This document shows, piece after piece, positions 39,406 to 44,093 of a stretch of 64,000 nt of DNA (position 1 is its first letter; each line of letters opens with the position of its first letter). Under the pieces are notes generated by a model. That model did no database searches and had not been told where the DNA came from. It was given only the letters and a program-made list of their open reading frames with translations. The stretch is from a bacterium (GTDB taxonomy: Bacteria > UBA8248): assembly GCA_965207065.1 (NCBI GenBank), contig OZ242260.1:4352001-4416000 (forward strand). The letters run 5' to 3'. A program made the position numbers and the translations under genes.

Positions 39406-40605
39406 ATGTCAAAGACAGGACGGGACCTGCTCGAGGCCGCGCGGGGCGATGTTCCTGAGATCACGGCGGAAGAAGTGAAGACCGCTATCGATTCGGGCGC
39501 CGAGGTGGCGCTCATCGACGTGCGCGAACCCGACGAGTTCCGGGGCGGCTACCTGCCGGGCGCCGAGCACGTGAGCCGCGGATTCCTGGAACTCAAGATC
39601 GAACAGGTCGTTCCCGATAGGACGACGCCCATCGTCGCTTACTGCGCGGGCGGCGTGCGCTCGCTGCTCGCGGGCCAGGCGCTGCAATCCATGGGCTATC
39701 AGAACGTGAAATCCATGGCCGGCGGATACGGGAAGTGGAAAGACCTGGCCTTTCCCGTGCAAGTGGACAAGCAGATGAGCGCCGAGCAGTTAAACCGCTA
39801 CAGCCGCCACTTCCTGCTCTCCCAGATCGGGGAAAAAGGCCAGTCCAAACTCCTGGACGCCAAGGTCGTCCTGATAGGCGCGGGAGGTCTGGGCTCTCCC
39901 ACCGGTCTTTACCTGACCGCCATGGGGGTGGGCAACATCGGCATCGTGGACCTGGACGTCGTGGACATGAGCAACCTGCAGCGCCAGATCGTCCACACGA
40001 ACGACCGCGTGGGAATCTCCAAGGTCGAGAGCGCGACAGCTACCCTCACCGCGCTGAACCCGGACGTGAACGTCATCGCGCACGAAGATAGAATCAACCG
40101 CGACAACGCGCTCGACATCCTCAAAGACTACGACGTCATCGTGAACGGGGCGGACAACTTCCCGACGCGCTACCTCGTGAACGACGCGGCGGTATTTCTC
40201 GGGAAACCCATCGTCGACGCCTCCATCTTCAAGTTCGAGGGCCAGGCCACCGTCTATCATCCCGGAGAGGGCGGCCCCTGCTACCGCTGCCTCTACCCCG
40301 AACCGCCGCCACCCGGCATGGTGCCCTCCTGTCAGGACGCAGGCGTGCTCGGCGCGCTTTGCGGCACCATGGGATCCATCCAGGCGACGGAGACGGCCAA
40401 ACTCATCGTTGGCTTCGGCGAACCGCTGATCGGCAAGCTGCTGATGTACGACGCGCTCAAGTCGCAGTTCAGGACGCTCAAGATCAGGCGCGACCCCGCC
40501 TGCCCGGTGTGCGGAGACAGCCCCTCCATCACCGAGCTCATCGACTATGAGTTCTTCTGCGGCCTCACGGAAGCACCCGCCGGCGGCGCCGCCAACGGTC
40601 ATTGA
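39406..40605 (+). CDS. moeB: Rhodanese-MoeB/ThiF adenylyltransferase (MoeZ-like)
   Basis: N-terminal rhodanese (DVREPDE, YCAGGVRS), RYSRH, GAGGLG, SNLQRQ and two CxxC. Confidence 0.9.
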   Translation: MSKTGRDLLEAARGDVPEITAEEVKTAIDSGAEVALIDVREPDEFRGGYLPGAEHVSRGFLELKIEQVVPDRTTPIVAYCAGGVRSLLAGQALQSMGYQNVKSMAGGYGKWKDLAFPVQVDKQMSAEQLNRYSRHFLLSQIGEKGQSKLLDAKVVLIGAGGLGSPTGLYLTAMGVGNIGIVDLDVVDMSNLQRQIVHTNDRVGISKVESATATLTALNPDVNVIAHEDRINRDNALDILKDYDVIVNGADNFPTRYLVNDAAVFLGKPIVDASIFKFEGQATVYHPGEGGPCYRCLYPEPPPPGMVPSCQDAGVLGALCGTMGSIQATETAKLIVGFGEPLIGKLLMYDALKSQFRTLKIRRDPACPVCGDSPSITELIDYEFFCGLTEAPAGGAANGH

Positions 40606-40666
40606 TGGGAACTAAACAGGCCGTCAAGCAGATATAGGGAATCAACGAAAGCCGAACCATAATACA

Positions 40667-40697
40667 CCCCCGGGGCGAAATGTTCCGGGGGTTTTTC
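40667..40697 (+). terminator. Rho-independent terminator after moeB
   Basis: CCCCCGGGGC-GAAAT-GTTCCGGGGG followed by TTTTT. Confidence 0.8.
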
Positions 40698-40714
40698 TAA
40701 GTCCTACATGAAAA

Positions 40715-40757
40715 TCAAAAAATATTTCTTGCAAAACAATAATTTTTGACTTATAGT
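40715..40757 (+). promoter_or_regulatory. Sigma70-like promoter of the RT cassette with flanking inverted repeat
   Basis: TTGCAA (40729-34), 17 bp, TATAGT (40752-57); inverted repeat 40715-26/40738-49 (11 of 12 bp). Confidence 0.6.
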
Positions 40758-40763
40758 TAGAAA

Positions 40764-41455
40764 AGATGTGGCAGGGTGATTCGCCCTGTATGTTCTTTGA
40801 CAATCCATCTTCGGGTATGGTGTTTAGGCCTACCATCTGACGCCTCTCCAAGCGTTCGTTTTTCTGGGTGCTTGCTCTTGAAATTTAGGCAATGCCTAAA
40901 ATCCAGTGTAAAACTCCGAACACTGTGATTACCCGTTTTATGCAGCCTGAGACATATCGATGCTTCAGCCCTTTCTTGGGGAGCATCGGTTCTTTGGTCA
41001 GTAAGCATTTGAAAATGAAGTATGCATATAACGGGCGTTCGCTCTATTGATGGACATTATAGGCGGGCTAACGAATGAGGGGTCTTAAGGGAGACTCCGC
41101 CAGTTTCTAGTCGAGAACAGAGGAGGTGAACAGATGAAAATAACTTAAGCACCAATAAATTCCGCCCGCCTGATTTATCCACAGAATAGGAAAATAAAAA
41201 AATGGATAAAAATCGAAACTCGAAGATGGGCCTTGAGAGGGCCGCAAAAGACATTATCAAAGTCGGTTACAAACTTCTTCGACAACAAAGCGACCCTCTC
41301 ATGGCGGGGACTTCAAAAGTAGTTCGTCGCCGACTCAAGCAGTTGGAACGTCAGCTACAAAATAAGCGAGTTCCACTTCCACAAAAAGAATTGGACAAAA
41401 TCGCTACAGAAGTCGCTGACACGATTAGCTGTCTTATGAAGTCCCTCATTCGTTA
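40764..41455 (+). ncRNA. Putative retron msr/msd-containing structured (hybrid) RNA overlapping the small ORF
   Basis: Many stems, e.g. 40884-40900, 40932-44/41023-35, 40958-88, 41061-68/41164-71, 41069-81/41443-55, 41230-45/41290-305 and 41306-15/41437-46; lies upstream of a retron RT. Boundaries inferred. Confidence 0.6.
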
Positions 41456-41522
41456 CTTATTTTCCGCAATCCACCATTGCGAGTTATTCATAGTATGGAA
41501 ACTAAAATTGGCAACACATTAA
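41202..41522 (+). CDS. Small orphan protein, putative retron effector
   Basis: 106 aa, basic and helical with hydrophobic C-terminus; AGGA SD; overlaps the HTH start by 28 nt. Confidence 0.55.
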   Translation: MDKNRNSKMGLERAAKDIIKVGYKLLRQQSDPLMAGTSKVVRRRLKQLERQLQNKRVPLPQKELDKIATEVADTISCLMKSLIRYLFSAIHHCELFIVWKLKLATH

Positions 41523-41800
41523 AAGTATTAAGGGTGGCTGCAGGCATAAACCAAGCGACCATGGCAAAAAGGCTAGAAATTACCCAAAATTATTTATCAC
41601 TTGTCGAAAATAACCACAAAGAACCAAGTCTCTCTTTTCTAAAAAAGTTCGCCGGCAATTTTGACATTCCCCTCGGGTATTTTTTGTGGCTCGCATTGGA
41701 TAAACAAGAAAATAACGAGGAAGAAGAGTTACGTGAAAAAATGGACTTGTTGCTAGAGCAAATATTGGTAGGCAGAAGAAAAAAAAATGCCTGGAAATAA
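41495..41800 (+). CDS. XRE/Cro-C1 family HTH protein (retron-associated)
   Basis: IGNTLKVLR..AGINQ..MA..L.ITQNYLS.VENN.KEPSL..L; ATG 41495. Confidence 0.9.
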   Translation: METKIGNTLKVLRVAAGINQATMAKRLEITQNYLSLVENNHKEPSLSFLKKFAGNFDIPLGYFLWLALDKQENNEEEELREKMDLLLEQILVGRRKKNAWK

Positions 41801-42734
41801 AAAGGCAAAATTAAAATCATTCTGGAACATACGAACGTCGAAAGATTTGTCACGCCTGCTCGGTGTAAAAGAAGAAATCTTAAACAAGATTTCGCAATCA
41901 GCACATTTGATGTACCGATCGCGAAATGAGCCTAAGAAAACTGGAGGGACTAGGCCAATAGACAGTCCTAGTAGTCATCTAAAATGGATACAATCAAAGA
42001 TTAACAAGTGTTTATTGCAAAGAACTCGCGTCCATAAATCTGCAATGGGAGGTATCCGCGGTAAAAGATTGAAAGACAATGCGGAAAAACATGTAGGAAA
42101 AAATTTAGTTGGCAAATTCGATTTAGAAAATTACTTTACTAACATTTCTCATAAGCAAGTCTATAATCGATTTTGCTCTATGGGGTGCTCCCCAGATGTG
42201 GCTAGAATTCTCACTAAACTAACAACATATAAAGGAAGAATTCCCCAAGGAGCGCCAACAAGTACTATGCTTGCGAATTTAGTAGCTGCTTATGCAAGAG
42301 ACAATCATAGTTTCAATGCAAGGATTGATTCGCTGGCTAGAAAACGTAATGCAACCGCTACTACCTGGGTTGATGATGTCACAATCTCGGGCCCATGTTA
42401 TATCCAAAAAGAAGCCAATACTTTCGAGAAAATTGCCAGGCAAAGTGGTTTCATTCCAAACACTGATAAAAATGAATTCATAAACAGCAACCAGCAACAA
42501 TTCGTCACTGGGGCAGTTGTCAATCAAAAAGTAAGCGCCTCAAAAGACTACAGAAAAGCTATACGAGCCGAACTCCATCAACTAAAAGTCCATGGTCCAA
42601 GCAACATTTGCAAAGAACCAATCAAAAAAGTAAAGGCGAAGCTTCGGAGCAAAATTGCACATGTAGACAATCTGAACCACGAACAAGGTGAAAAACTTCT
42701 AAAAGAATTCAACGCTATCGACTGGGACTCTTAA
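41787..42734 (+). CDS. Retron-type reverse transcriptase
   Basis: PKKTGGTRPI, LKWIQ, NAEKH (region X NAxxH), FDLENYF, IPQGAPTS, WVDD, FVTGAVVN (region Y VTG); 315 aa with no fused domain. Confidence 0.93.
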   Translation: MPGNKKAKLKSFWNIRTSKDLSRLLGVKEEILNKISQSAHLMYRSRNEPKKTGGTRPIDSPSSHLKWIQSKINKCLLQRTRVHKSAMGGIRGKRLKDNAEKHVGKNLVGKFDLENYFTNISHKQVYNRFCSMGCSPDVARILTKLTTYKGRIPQGAPTSTMLANLVAAYARDNHSFNARIDSLARKRNATATTWVDDVTISGPCYIQKEANTFEKIARQSGFIPNTDKNEFINSNQQQFVTGAVVNQKVSASKDYRKAIRAELHQLKVHGPSNICKEPIKKVKAKLRSKIAHVDNLNHEQGEKLLKEFNAIDWDS

Positions 42735-42813
42735 AAGTCGCCAAACATAAGAAATATCTAAACAAAAACACTGAGAAACTTAAAAAAACTAACTCCTCCA
42801 ATCAGAAAAATCC

Positions 42814-43170
42814 CTACCCAACCTCCTCCAGCCTGGCCGCATCCATCACCGGTCTTATGGGGTATTGGCCCCGCAGGAGTTCGGCGAGAAAACCCAGGTG
42901 TTCGGCGAGGGCCGACATGTGCGCGGCGGCGTAGCGGGCGGATAGCGCACCGGCCTCTTGCGCCAGGGCTTCGCGCGCATCTGTGGCGGGAGCCTCCTGG
43001 GCGGCCAGGGCGTTAAAGGCATCAAGCAGGGCGCAGATGTCTTCATGCGCTCCCGCATATTCCGTCTTCAGCGCATAGGGGCTTCTCAGGATGAGGTGCA
43101 CGGGGTTTTGCGTGTTCGATGACTGATCGAGCATGCAGCGGCTTCGTCTCTGGTCGTAGTTTTCGGGCAT
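42814..43170 (-). CDS. Hypothetical protein
   Basis: ATG 43170 with GAGG SD directly downstream of the MBL gene; host-like GC. Confidence 0.5.
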   Translation of the reverse strand: MPENYDQRRSRCMLDQSSNTQNPVHLILRSPYALKTEYAGAHEDICALLDAFNALAAQEAPATDAREALAQEAGALSARYAAAHMSALAEHLGFLAELLRGQYPIRPVMDAARLEEVG

Positions 43171-43178
43171 CGTCCTCT

Positions 43179-44093
43179 TCAACCTCCCCGCGCGTCGTGG
43201 AGCGATATCCCCTGCTCGCCACGGCCTTTGAACTCGTTGTAGAGCTTCATCACGGCCTGCTCGACGCGGTCGGGCTTCATCCACTCCGTATACCTGCCCA
43301 GAGGAATCTCGCGCGCGGCGCGCTTGGCGGGCACACCTTTTTCGAAGCGTTTTTTCGCCTCCCGGCGCACGAGCCGGAGGTAGCTTAAAGTTTTCTCGAG
43401 CGCGCGCTTATCCCCAGGCGGCCCGTGCCCCGGAACAATAGTATCGACCGAAAAAGTTTTGAGTATCTTGTCCGCGATCCGTATCCACCCGCCGATATGG
43501 GCGTCGAAGGTGGCGGGCGTAACGTAGTGAAAGCAGATATCGCCTGTGAAGAGAACACGCTCCTCAGGCAGATAGACGACTGTGTCGCCTTTAGAATGCG
43601 CGTGGCCCAGGTGGTGGAGTTCCACGACGCGCTTGCCCAGGCGAAGCGTCATACCGCCCTCGTAGGTGACGTCGGGAAAGCGTGGCTTAAGCCTTTTGAG
43701 TTCGCCTGCGTATTCGGGGTTCACGCCCCGGTAGTGCGCGAGGTCGAGCCCCGTCTCTATCATCCGCTCGCGCATGTAGCGGTGCGCGATGACGGGGATG
43801 TCCTTATCGAACCATGTAAGCCCCAGGGTGTGATCCGCATGGTGGTGGGTGCAGACGATTTTGCGCACCGGCTTTCGGGTCGCCTTTCGGATCGATTCCT
43901 GAAAAGCCTGCGTCATGGGCCGCACGTACAGAGAATCGATGACCAAGGCCTCGCTGTCCCCCACGATGAGGCCTGCGTTCGAGACGTTCAGCCCGCCCCC
44001 CTGAATGTAGGCGTAGACGCCCGGGGCCATGCGCTGAAGCCCCGTCTTCCAGCTTGCGGGTATTTTCCGGGTCTCGACCATACGTACCTCCAT
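43179..44093 (-). CDS. MBL-fold metallo-hydrolase (cyclase-like)
   Basis: THHHADH, HSKGD, FTGD and VPGHG. Confidence 0.9.
   Translation of the reverse strand: MEVRMVETRKIPASWKTGLQRMAPGVYAYIQGGGLNVSNAGLIVGDSEALVIDSLYVRPMTQAFQESIRKATRKPVRKIVCTHHHADHTLGLTWFDKDIPVIAHRYMRERMIETGLDLAHYRGVNPEYAGELKRLKPRFPDVTYEGGMTLRLGKRVVELHHLGHAHSKGDTVVYLPEERVLFTGDICFHYVTPATFDAHIGGWIRIADKILKTFSVDTIVPGHGPPGDKRALEKTLSYLRLVRREAKKRFEKGVPAKRAAREIPLGRYTEWMKPDRVEQAVMKLYNEFKGRGEQGISLHDARGG

What the first reader, a model, noticed from the sequence alone, without database searches (positions are those of the whole stretch)
40700..42810. AT-rich retron cassette: structured RNA - small orphan ORF - XRE HTH - RT (type VI-like), likely anti-phage
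Seen: an abruptly AT-rich block between the moeB terminator and GC-rich host genes. It has its own promoter and three overlapping ORFs (41202-41522, 41495-41800, 41787-42734). The RT has the retron-diagnostic NAxxH (NAEKH) and VTG motifs. Known: retrons are RT + msr/msd RNA + effector defence units, and a small-protein/XRE-HTH/RT arrangement characterises type VI retrons. Inference: a horizontally acquired, apparently intact defence system with an orphan effector and an unusually long RNA component, possibly a new variant. No integrase or flanking repeats were seen.
Basis: partly seen in the sequence, partly recalled or inferred. Interest (0 to 1): 0.92.

Follow-up and report, generated by a model that had tools for sequence, protein, structure and literature searches.

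The report
Type VI retron defence cassette
This 2.1-kb AT-rich insert is a complete type VI retron, an anti-phage system built from a reverse transcriptase, a small DNA-binding protein, a small toxin and a long folded RNA; the kind is already described, but this copy belongs to a little-studied branch with its own toxin family.

Summary
Window 40701-42823 is a 2.1-kb AT-rich insertion. Its ends are fixed by 13 same-genus genomes whose site is empty. It carries a promoter, a ~440-nt structured leader and three overlapping ORFs exactly as reported.

PADLOC names the RT RT_VI and the HTH HTH_VI. The 106-aa "orphan" ORF belongs to a small, unnamed family of helical proteins. That family sits upstream of HTH-RT in 26 of 26 related loci that reach far enough upstream.

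The leader and the small-protein coding sequence form one conserved RNA fold. 92.5% of cells are paired, against 39-52% in slid controls. 37 of 78 pairs show compensatory changes.

- One long-range helix pairs the 5' region with codons 6-10 of the small protein.
- Another pairs the leader with the KSLIRY codons.

This matches the "hybrid RNA" of Retron-Vpa2 and the extended transcript of Retron-Sen3, both described in 2025-26 preprints. A complex prediction supports HTH binding the small protein (0.65, best control 0.00).

Verdict: a new member of a known kind, from a separate sublineage in a probable Nitrospinota host. msDNA and defence are untested. The scan has already found type VI retrons on other DNA. 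In three sister genomes the same site holds a restriction-modification cassette.

The parts
40701..42823 (+). Inserted AT-rich cassette (whole retron unit). Its last ~10 nt supply the final two codons and the stop of the convergent downstream gene.
   Evidence: Empty sites in 13 same-genus loci join the terminator directly to the downstream gene. GC profile.
40729..40757 (+). Promoter: -35 TTGCAA, 17-nt spacer, -10 TATAGT.
   Evidence: The same layout (TTGACA-type -35, TATAGT-type -10) appears in the related loci printed.
40771..40789 (+). 5' stem-loop of the RNA (GCAGGGTG/CGCCCTGT), followed by the conserved box TTCTTTGA at 40793-40800.
   Evidence: Helix 1: 100% of cells paired and 3 of 8 pairs changed on both sides. 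Box invariant or nearly so.
40805..40816 (+). 5' arm of long-range helix P-A.
   Evidence: Pairs with 41218-41229. 7 of 9 aligned pairs changed on both sides and 96.1% of cells paired. It is part of the minimum-free-energy fold of the window RNA.
40932..41035 (+). Long imperfect hairpin in the length-variable middle of the leader. Candidate reverse-transcription template (msd), not shown.
   Evidence: Folds of the window RNA. The region is variable in length and sequence across loci. The analogy to the variable SL3 of Retron-Sen3 is inference.
41069..41082 (+). IR1, 5' arm of the second long-range helix.
   Evidence: 13 of 13 perfect complement to 41443-41455 (I14). Helix 8: 96.8% paired. One pair occurs as U-A in 9, C-G in 8 and G-C in 2 sequences.
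41121..41129 (+). Invariant Shine-Dalgarno-like box AGGAGGTGA. It repeats the small-protein ribosome-binding sequence seen in the relatives.
   Evidence: Invariant in 20 of 20 sequences. Its pairing to a 5' CCUCC-type stretch is possible but not supported by covariation (helix 4).
41202..41522 (+). Small protein (SP), 106 aa, predicted three-helix protein; putative toxin. The 3' arm of P-A (41218-41229) covers codons 6-10.
41442..41455 (+). IR2, 3' arm of the second long-range helix. It lies inside the SP coding sequence on the codons of the conserved SLIRY motif.
41495..41800 (+). Cro/C1-type HTH protein, 101 aa; putative antitoxin and repressor.
   Evidence: PADLOC HTH_VI 4.1e-25. Pfam HTH_3 4e-11. 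Alignment. Complex prediction with SP.
41787..42734 (+). Retron reverse transcriptase, 315 aa, with NAEKH, WVDD catalytic box and VTG.
   Evidence: PADLOC RT_VI 3.2e-67. Pfam RVT_1. Only retron RTs match in the PDB. Alignment.
42735..42823 (+). A-rich 3' tail of the cassette up to the right junction.
   Evidence: The tail is about 45 nt shorter in the sister genome L001.

Best explanation
This is a type VI retron, an abortive-infection-type anti-phage unit. One promoter drives a long transcript. Its ~440-nt leader and the coding sequence of a ~100-aa helical toxin (SP) fold together into one 'hybrid RNA'. The overlapping genes for a Cro/C1 HTH protein and a retron reverse transcriptase follow. 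Shown here: the gene order, the family assignments, the insertion, the conserved RNA fold with two long-range helices that reach into the SP coding sequence, and a predicted HTH-SP interface. Inferred by analogy with Retron-Vpa2 and Retron-Sen3: (1) in uninfected cells SP is held in check twice, by RNA structure around its start region and by HTH binding to SP; (2) HTH also restrains the RT; (3) a phage cue, in the studied systems a phage recombination or RecBCD-inhibiting function, lets the RT copy part of the leader into single-stranded DNA and/or releases SP from HTH; (4) free SP stops growth of the infected cell.
For: PADLOC best hits are RT_VI (3.2e-67, 224.8 bits) and HTH_VI (4.1e-25); the next HTH hit is 2.8e-07. 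All 12 PDB sequence matches of the RT are retron RTs, led by Ec86 at 5.4e-26. SP-HTH-RT is kept in 26 of 26 loci of this RT clade whose contig reaches upstream; 6 further contigs end within 111 nt of the RT start. RTs with this SP form one clade of 22 rows, SH-aLRT 98, in a quick tree. SP shows a coding signature: column entropy by codon position is 0.86, 0.75 and 1.17. SP is a confident three-helix model, pLDDT 81. RNA fold: 78 pairs, 92.5% of cells paired against 39.5-51.7% when slid, 37 pairs with changes on both sides against 7-17 when slid, and 0 of 500 shuffles reach the observed values. The window RNA folds at z = -4.9. HTH-SP complex score is 0.65 with best control 0.00. That mark was reached by 58 of 80 solved complexes and 2 of 110 mismatched pairs. 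The runs share at least 96% of contacts and the partner pLDDT is at least 73. My own alignments were used, so the calibration holds only roughly. The mechanism of the two studied systems was read (Vpa2; Sen3). The same chromosomal site holds a type II restriction-modification cassette in 3 sister genomes, as expected of a defence hot spot.
Against: No msDNA, toxicity or phage protection was or could be measured. RT_VI beats RT_III-A by only 0.8 bits, and no tree with reference type IV/V/VI RTs could be built. NCBIfam retron models score below their cut-offs: St85 family 155.8 bits against a cut-off of 235. Rfam has no matching family. The template region (msd) and the priming G are not identified. 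The two long-range helices cross each other, so they form a pseudoknot or alternative states. The anti-SD/SD helix has no covariation support (84.9% paired, 1 of 10 pairs changed on both sides). In the window and in L001 several inner hairpins do not align with those of the other loci. The window's own SP ribosome-binding site is weak. The catalytic box is WVDD, not the YADD reported for Vpa2. Evidence of transcription is limited to short contigs in two metatranscriptome runs of one study, and these may hold DNA.
Confidence: 0.8

Rival explanations
1. Sen3-like control only. SP is made all the time and is neutralised purely by HTH binding. The RNA structure serves the RT as template and scaffold and is not a translational switch.
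For: The complex prediction supports HTH-SP binding through the C-terminal helix of HTH. Retron-Sen3 works this way, and its SP coding region is also under RNA structural selection (abstract and section 28). The relatives carry a strong consensus RBS in front of SP.
Against: Helix P-A closes over SP codons 6-10 with 7 of 9 covarying pairs. In the window fold the start codon sits in a local hairpin, as in Vpa2, where translation is repressed. The two modes are not exclusive.
Confidence: 0.25
2. A selfish toxin-antitoxin addiction cassette or a decaying retron. SP-HTH maintains the insert and the RT no longer makes DNA or defends.
For: The Sen3 preprint reports that the HTH-SP module works without RT and ncRNA (abstract). 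The catalytic box is unusual, WVDD. The cassette is found in only 2 of 23 same-genus genomes searched.
Against: The RT is full length with D196 and D197 invariant across 34 sequences that share 37-88% identity with the window's RT. W[VI]DD is the rule in all 21 SP+HTH loci and in 13 of 19 other HTH-linked RTs, so it is a lineage trait and not decay. RT, HTH, SP and the RNA are all conserved together.
Confidence: 0.05
3. A different class of reverse transcriptase system (DRT/UG, Abi, group II intron) that merely sits next to an HTH gene.
For: NCBIfam gives weak sub-threshold hits to group II maturase (34.9 bits, cut-off 300) and Drt2 (20.6 bits, cut-off 390).
Against: Every strong hit is to a retron RT model or structure. 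The retron motifs NAxxH and VTG are conserved. There is no intron RNA, maturase or endonuclease domain in a 315-aa protein.
Confidence: 0.02
4. The 106-codon frame is not translated. It stays open only because the RNA structure is conserved.
For: Two conserved helices lie inside it. No protein family matches it. Nonsynonymous differences are frequent: 23 nonsynonymous against 16 synonymous codon changes between the window and L001.
Against: The frame is open at ~100 codons in 26 of 26 loci at 29-40% identity to the metagenomic copies. Third codon positions vary most. A consensus RBS precedes it in the relatives. It gives a confident helical model and a predicted interface with HTH.
Confidence: 0.03

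Closest known systems
Retron-Vpa2 (type VI retron of Vibrio parahaemolyticus; Zhang et al., bioRxiv 10.1101/2025.10.22.683967; abstract and sections 7, 8, 9, 25 read)
   Same: Structured RNA, small protein, HTH, then RT in one operon. The small-protein coding sequence is part of the structured transcript. The start region is sequestered. Inverted repeats tie the 3' part back to the leader. Repeated short boxes are present. The toxin is small and helical.
   Different: SP here is ~100 aa in three helices, against 55 aa. The RNA from the 5' stem-loop to IR2 spans ~690 nt here and up to ~790 nt in relatives, against ~470 nt. The 3' repeat arm lies inside the coding sequence on the SLIRY codons. 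The RT has WVDD, not YADD. The host is a probable Nitrospinota. msDNA, triggers and toxicity are unknown here. No sequence comparison with Vpa2 could be made, because no Vpa2 sequence was on hand.
Retron-Sen3 and the cl2075 lineage (Garcia-Rodriguez et al., bioRxiv 10.64898/2026.04.27.721009; abstract and sections 25, 27, 28, 29, 33 read)
   Same: SP-HTH-RT order. [quoted passage not shown] A length-variable inner stem-loop region. An IR1-IR2 long-range pairing that embeds SP in the RNA scaffold. Covarying pairs inside the SP coding sequence. RT clades that track SP families. HTH proposed to bind SP.
   Different: [quoted passage not shown] Here it lies ~65 nt before the stop and covaries. The ncRNA lies within ~280 nt of the SP start in Sen3, against ~440 nt here. 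SP is 79 aa there. The hosts are Beta- and Gammaproteobacteria.
Type VI retrons as classified by Mestre et al. 2020 (known to me only through the two preprints above; paper not read)
   Same: Retron RT with a Cro/C1 HTH gene upstream or overlapping, and in a subset a small accessory protein.
   Different: Whether this SP belongs to cl2075, cl2760, cl3272, cl3897 or the heterogeneous 'Large' lineage could not be checked. The cluster sequences are in supplements that were closed.
Type V retron (RT plus cold-shock protein), e.g. Hafnia paralvei plasmid pAVS0177-b
   Same: Retron RT of the related IV/V/VI group, about 30% identity.
   Different: The accessory gene is a cold-shock domain protein downstream of the RT. 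There is no HTH and no SP.

Membership tests
Type VI retron | Reverse transcriptase of the retron kind (RVT_1 core with the retron motifs NAxxH and VTG) | tested here: met
   Pfam RVT_1 1e-14. 48 PADLOC RT models match, nearly all of the 25 shown being retron RT models. All 12 PDB matches are retron RTs. N98, H102 and T241 are invariant or nearly so. That these motifs are retron-diagnostic is recalled, not from a call.
Type VI retron | RT falls in the type VI RT clade (RT-clade 3) in a phylogeny with type IV and V outgroups | tested here: inconclusive
   The best PADLOC model is RT_VI, but only 0.8 bits above RT_III-A. No reference RT set was on hand. My quick tree holds only metagenomic relatives and two plasmid RTs.
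Type VI retron | Cro/C1-type HTH gene directly upstream of, or overlapping, the RT gene | tested here: met
   PADLOC HTH_VI 4.1e-25 over positions 1-86 of 92. The genes overlap by 14 nt. The arrangement is kept in all related loci.
Type VI retron | Small accessory protein upstream of HTH (SP-HTH-RT; present in a subset) | tested here: met
   106-aa ORF overlapping HTH by 28 nt. Homologues are in the same place in 26 of 26 loci. Identity with a named SP cluster was not testable.
Type VI retron | Structured RNA upstream that continues into the SP coding sequence (hybrid RNA / extended transcript) | tested here: met
   Covariation-supported fold across 20 loci, including two helices with one arm in the SP coding sequence. 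No homology test with the published covariance models was possible.
Type VI retron | RT-dependent single-stranded DNA copied from the RNA | not testable with these tools
   Needs expression and nucleic-acid analysis. The template region is only guessed (40932-41035).
Type VI retron | Protection against phage through the SP toxin | not testable with these tools
   Only indirect: a predicted HTH-SP interface and a defence cassette at the same site in sister genomes.

The most novel reading that the evidence does not exclude
In this lineage the toxin message and the reverse-transcription template may be the same stretch of RNA. The strongly covarying P-A helix (5' region with SP codons 6-10) or the IR1-IR2 helix (leader with the SLIRY codons) would act as the a1/a2-like priming duplex. 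The RT would then copy the SP ribosome-binding region or the coding sequence itself. cDNA synthesis, with the twin invariant AGGAGGTGA boxes as decoy and real ribosome site, would directly rewire toxin translation. That would be a different wiring from Vpa2, where the msDNA maps to a separate stem-loop of the leader.
Probability: 0.12. Interest if true: 0.7.

Novelty: new member of a known kind. Interest (0 to 1): 0.4.

Why it matters
Type VI retrons were the last retron type without a known RNA or mechanism. Only two have been dissected, both from Gammaproteobacteria, and they disagree on how the toxin is controlled.

This cassette offers a compact third test case:
- It is cleanly delimited at 2.1 kb.
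- It comes from a distant host.
- It has a different, larger toxin family.
- Its RNA has well-supported helices inside the toxin coding sequence, so compensatory mutants can be designed directly.

It also marks a small intergenic hot spot, between a shared terminator and a stop codon, that takes up either a retron or a restriction-modification cassette without any recombinase gene.

Tried and rejected
- **Rfam** (evalue mode, 40000-43500): only a chance miRNA match at E = 9.
- **SP against known families:** no hit above threshold in Pfam, PADLOC or NCBIfam. PDB by profile gave only a chance hit at E = 2.6. Foldseek of the SP model against the PDB gave 0 matches at E<=0.001, only generic helical bundles.
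- **Anti-SD/SD helix** (alignment columns 61-70 with 543-552): 84.9% paired, but only 1 of 10 pairs changed on both sides. I do not claim it.
- **RNAalifold's alternative partners:** columns 61-68 with 478-484 for the 5' CCUCC stretch, and an inner partner for IR2 at columns 742-765. They show no or almost no change on both sides. I prepared structure strings for them but did not run the counts.
- **Named type VI comparators:** protein searches of the RT against plasmids and phages gave only ~23-34% identical retron RTs. The three records I opened were a type V retron, a Bacteroides RT with a 71-aa neighbour, and a lone Burkholderia RT. None gave an SP to compare.
- **Host name:** cluster look-ups of two flanking proteins returned no organism names. 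The Nitrospinota label rests on earlier AI notes and one partial hit named Nitrospinota.
- **Careful maximum-likelihood tree:** it did not finish in time; the quick tree is used.
- **RNA-library contigs:** they cover only parts of the cassette. Uncovered parts and the uncovered flanks prove nothing.
- **Pfam scan of the neighbouring R-M proteins:** it failed on a bad third reference of mine. PADLOC was used instead.
- **Flanking repeat CCTAC** at both ends of the insert: 5 nt, judged chance.
Full report
**1. The observation**

The region is as described.
- GC drops from 0.59-0.66 in the flanks to 0.36-0.46 between about 40650 and 42750.
- A ThiF/rhodanese (moeB-type) gene ends at 40605. It is followed by a G+C-rich hairpin with a T-run at 40666-40692.
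- Three same-strand ORFs follow: 41202-41522 (106 aa), 41495-41800 (101 aa) and 41787-42734 (315 aa). They overlap by 28 and 14 nt.
- A sigma-70-like site lies at 40729-40757. The scan itself is not above chance, with 3 sites found and 3.7 expected.

**2. It is an insertion with sharp ends**

The moeB-type gene is found in 22 of 23 same-genus genomes at 91-98% identity. I examined the other genomes' 21 loci.
- In 13 loci the terminator is followed within a few bases by the convergent downstream gene.
- Aligning these empty sites places the insert at 40701 to about 42823.
- The last ~10 nt of the insert replace about 7 nt of host sequence. They give the downstream gene a new two-codon tail and stop...LEEVG* here, against ...LEEIS*/LEEIT* in two empty sites I read (L014, L017).
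- There is no integrase gene and no target duplication, apart from a 5-nt CCTAC that I take as chance.
- Only one other same-genus genome, G011 (= L001), carries the cassette. It has the same right junction. Its RT is 84% identical in protein and the island 78% in DNA, while the moeB 3' end is 92% identical in DNA.
- Genomes whose moeB protein is closer (98%) have empty sites. This suggests transfer by flank recombination, or loss. One gene is not a species tree.

**3. Family assignment**

*RT.*
- Pfam RVT_1 1e-14.
- PADLOC RT_VI 3.2e-67 (224.8 bits), closely followed by RT_III-A (224.0 bits) and other retron RT models.
- NCBIfam retron models score below their cut-offs. Group II and Drt2 models are far below.
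- All 12 PDB matches are retron RTs: Ec86, Ec67, Kva2, Ec78, Ec83 and others.

*HTH.*
- Pfam HTH_3 4e-11.
- PADLOC HTH_VI 4.1e-25 over nearly the full model; the next hit is 2.8e-07.

*Small ORF.* It matches no family in Pfam, PADLOC or NCBIfam.

*RT motifs.*
- Across 34 RTs that share 37-88% identity with the window's RT, the NAxxH histidine, the two catalytic aspartates and the VTG threonine are invariant.
- The catalytic box is W[VI]DD. This holds in 21 of 21 loci with this small protein and in 13 of 19 other HTH-linked RTs among the fetched loci.
- RTs without an HTH neighbour mostly have YADD.
- It is therefore a lineage trait and not a defect.

**4. The small protein is a real, conserved gene**

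- A word-indexed search found 5 close homologues at 78-96% identity and 103-107 aa.
- A metagenome scan with an RT alignment returned 80 loci.
- 32 loci make up the RT clade at about 43-56% identity (the window, L001, L035-L064). 26 of them reach far enough upstream.
- All 26 have a homologue of the small protein directly upstream of the HTH gene. 24 were found by phmmer and 2 more by a profile.
- The other 6 contigs end within 111 nt of the RT start.
- In a quick tree these RTs form one clade: 22 rows, SH-aLRT 98. The careful search did not finish. This matches the published rule that type VI RT subclades track the small-protein family.
- A profile search of 1.84 billion representative proteins found only 26 proteins at E<=0.001, 24 of them at E<=1e-10. 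All but two are 81-137 aa (one of 62 aa and a repetitive 1115-aa protein). The family is rare and unnamed.
- Third codon positions vary most: entropy 0.86, 0.75 and 1.17 for positions 1, 2 and 3. The relatives have a consensus AAAGGAGGTGA ribosome-binding site.
- AlphaFold2 gives three helices (3-27, 32-53, 61-105) at mean pLDDT 81 and pTM 0.65. No informative PDB fold match was found.
- The conserved core ends in the motif KSLIRY, followed by a variable, often hydrophobic tail.
- The two studied type VI toxins are 55 aa (Vpa2) and 79 aa (Sen3) helical proteins with a hydrophobic C-terminal core.

**5. The RNA**

I aligned 20 non-redundant loci from the 5' stem-loop to just past the SLIRY codons.

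*Conserved elements.*
- The promoter.
- A 5' stem-loop at window 40771-40789.
- A CTCTTTGA box at 40793-40800.
- Several hairpins.
- A middle region that varies in length and sequence.
- An invariant AGGAGGTGA box at 41121-41129, which repeats the small protein's ribosome-binding sequence.

*Test of the structure.* I tested a structure of 78 pairs in 11 helices.

| Measure | Structure | 3' partners slid by 1-3 columns |
|---|---|---|
| Cells paired | 92.5% | 39.5-51.7% |
| Pairs changed on both sides | 37 | 7-17 |
| Covariation score | 0.371 | at most 0.134 |

No shuffle out of 500 reached any observed value. The caveats printed with that tool about related sequences apply.

*Two helices are long-range and reach into the coding sequence.*
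- **P-A** joins 40805-40816 to 41218-41229, which are codons 6-10 of the small protein. 7 of 9 aligned pairs changed on both sides.
- **IR1-IR2** joins 41069-41082 to 41442-41455, which are the SLIRY codons. It is a perfect 13-mer in the window.
  - The pair opposite the third position of the Leu codon occurs as U-A in 9 sequences, C-G in 8 and G-C in 2.
  - The pair opposite the second position of the Tyr/Cys codon switches from U-A to C-G.
  - By an ungapped-run test, 18 of 24 loci have at least 11 consecutive pairs.

*Window fold and open points.*
- The window RNA (40765-41500) folds at -246 kcal/mol, z = -4.9.
- P-A is part of the minimum-free-energy fold. In that fold the start codon sits in a local hairpin.
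- The two long-range helices cross, so they form a pseudoknot or alternative states.
- The window and L001 differ from the other loci in several inner hairpins. The inner structure of this particular copy rests on single-sequence folds.
- A long imperfect hairpin at about 40932-41035 in the variable region is my guess for the template (msd). Nothing shows it.

**6. Comparison with what is in print**

A full-text search for 'type VI retron' returned 4 papers. I read parts of two.

*Zhang et al. (abstract and sections 7, 8, 9, 25) on Retron-Vpa2.*
- A ~470-nt hybrid RNA holds both the msr-msd part and the coding sequence of a toxic small protein.
- The ribosome-binding site and start codon are in stem-loops.
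- The 3' end pairs back to the first arm.
- There are direct repeats in loops.
- HTH, RT and the RNA form a complex, and HTH represses reverse transcription.
- Phage recombination proteins trigger msDNA accumulation, and the msDNA is needed to derepress toxin translation.

*Garcia-Rodriguez et al. (abstract and sections 25, 27-29, 33) on Retron-Sen3.*
- It has the same parts: a conserved 5' stem-loop, a variable inner stem-loop, and an IR1-IR2 pairing around the small-protein gene. There are covarying pairs inside the coding sequence.
- ssDNA is constitutive, and control is post-translational by HTH. RecBCD inhibition is the trigger.

The cassette here has every architectural feature of these systems. 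Its differences are of degree and lineage:
- a larger toxin family;
- a longer RNA (about 690 nt from the stem-loop to IR2 here, and up to about 790 nt in relatives);
- IR2 inside the coding sequence, with covariation;
- WVDD in the RT;
- a different host group.

Mestre et al. 2020 and Khan et al. 2025 are known to me only as cited in these preprints. The supplements that hold the small-protein clusters and trees were closed. I cannot say whether this family is one of the four named clusters or part of the 'Large' lineage.

**7. HTH and the small protein**

- A complex prediction with my alignments of both proteins scored 0.65 (median of three runs), with best control 0.00.
- The mark was reached by 58 of 80 solved complexes and by 2 of 110 mismatched pairs in the tool's calibration. 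That calibration holds only roughly for user alignments.
- The runs share at least 96% of contacts, and the partner's pLDDT is at least 73.
- The interface uses HTH residues 57-97, the C-terminal helices beyond the DNA-binding domain. On the small protein it uses helices 1 and 3.
- This supports an antitoxin-like contact, as proposed for Sen3. It does not show one.

**8. Expression and context**

- Contigs from two metatranscriptome runs of one study hold near-identical pieces of the leader (40807-40949) and of the RT gene. Such libraries can contain DNA, so this is only a hint.
- Earlier notes of this scan call the genome a sponge-type Nitrospinota. I did not check this. One partial RT hit is named Nitrospinota.
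- The scan has already reported type VI retrons on other DNA. None resembles this one in sequence.

**9. A hot spot**

- In three other same-genus genomes (G008, G015, G022) the same gap holds a different 2.3-kb AT-rich insert on the opposite strand.
- That insert carries a type II methyltransferase (PADLOC MTase_II 1.4e-118) and an HNH-type restriction enzyme (1.8e-16).
- Its insertion point lies a few bases from that of the retron.
- So the gap is filled in 5 genomes, the retron in 2 of 23 and R-M in 3 of 23.
- 13 genomes have the gap empty and 4 are arranged differently. The moeB query found nothing in the 23rd genome (G018).

**10. Verdict**

- It is a complete type VI retron from a separate sublineage: a new member of a known kind.
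- The most useful new details are the exact insertion boundaries, the covariation-supported helices that tie the leader to the toxin coding sequence, the unnamed ~100-aa toxin family, the predicted HTH-toxin contact, and the recombinase-free defence hot spot.
- Function (msDNA, trigger, toxicity, protection) remains to be shown.

Noticed in passing
L118 (G008), L119 (G015), L120 (G022): about 195-2490 in reverse-complement coordinates; equivalent to the window site 40700/42824: The same gap between the moeB terminator and the downstream stop codon holds a 2.3-kb AT-rich type II restriction-modification cassette (methyltransferase plus HNH-type nuclease) in three sister genomes. No recombinase gene is present. 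This makes the site a small defence hot spot.
   Followed up: partly
window 42814-43284 (- strand): The convergent 156-aa gene has no Pfam family. It takes its last two codons and its stop codon from the end of the retron insert (...LEEVG* here, against ...LEEIS*/IT* in two empty sites read, L014 and L017).
   Followed up: partly
window 41121-41129, and alignment A3 columns 543-553 and 630-640: Two copies of an AAAGGAGGTGA box about 80 nt apart. The first is invariant in 20 of 20 loci and is not followed by a conserved ORF (in the window only a 4-codon frame). The second is the small protein's ribosome-binding site in the relatives but is degenerate in the window. A CCUCC-type stretch near the 5' end could pair with either.
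   Followed up: partly
L055, L057, L061 (sister clade of the RT tree): These loci carry a much more divergent small protein (~135 aa, motif FLIRY). It is detectable only with a profile in L055 and L057 and weakly by phmmer in L061. Their HTH proteins are nearly identical to each other.
   Followed up: partly
L122 (G001), L123 (G009), L124 (G007), L121 (G016): In four same-genus genomes the DNA after moeB is of normal GC content. The usual downstream genes lie 1.2-2 kb further on or were not found, so the locus is rearranged there. The contents were not examined.
   Followed up: no
G017:C15:275927-276895 (L011, L012): A distant RT match (~30% identity) in a sister genome is split in two pieces, with a TAG stop inside one match. 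It is possibly a broken RT gene.
   Followed up: no
G000:C1:1477175-1477786, 2509100-2509570, 914586-914999, 2318327-2318740 (L003-L006): The genome has four other weak RT-model matches in open frames of 449-1092 aa. Two look like copies (both 493 aa with the same score). They may be group II intron or other RT genes.
   Followed up: no
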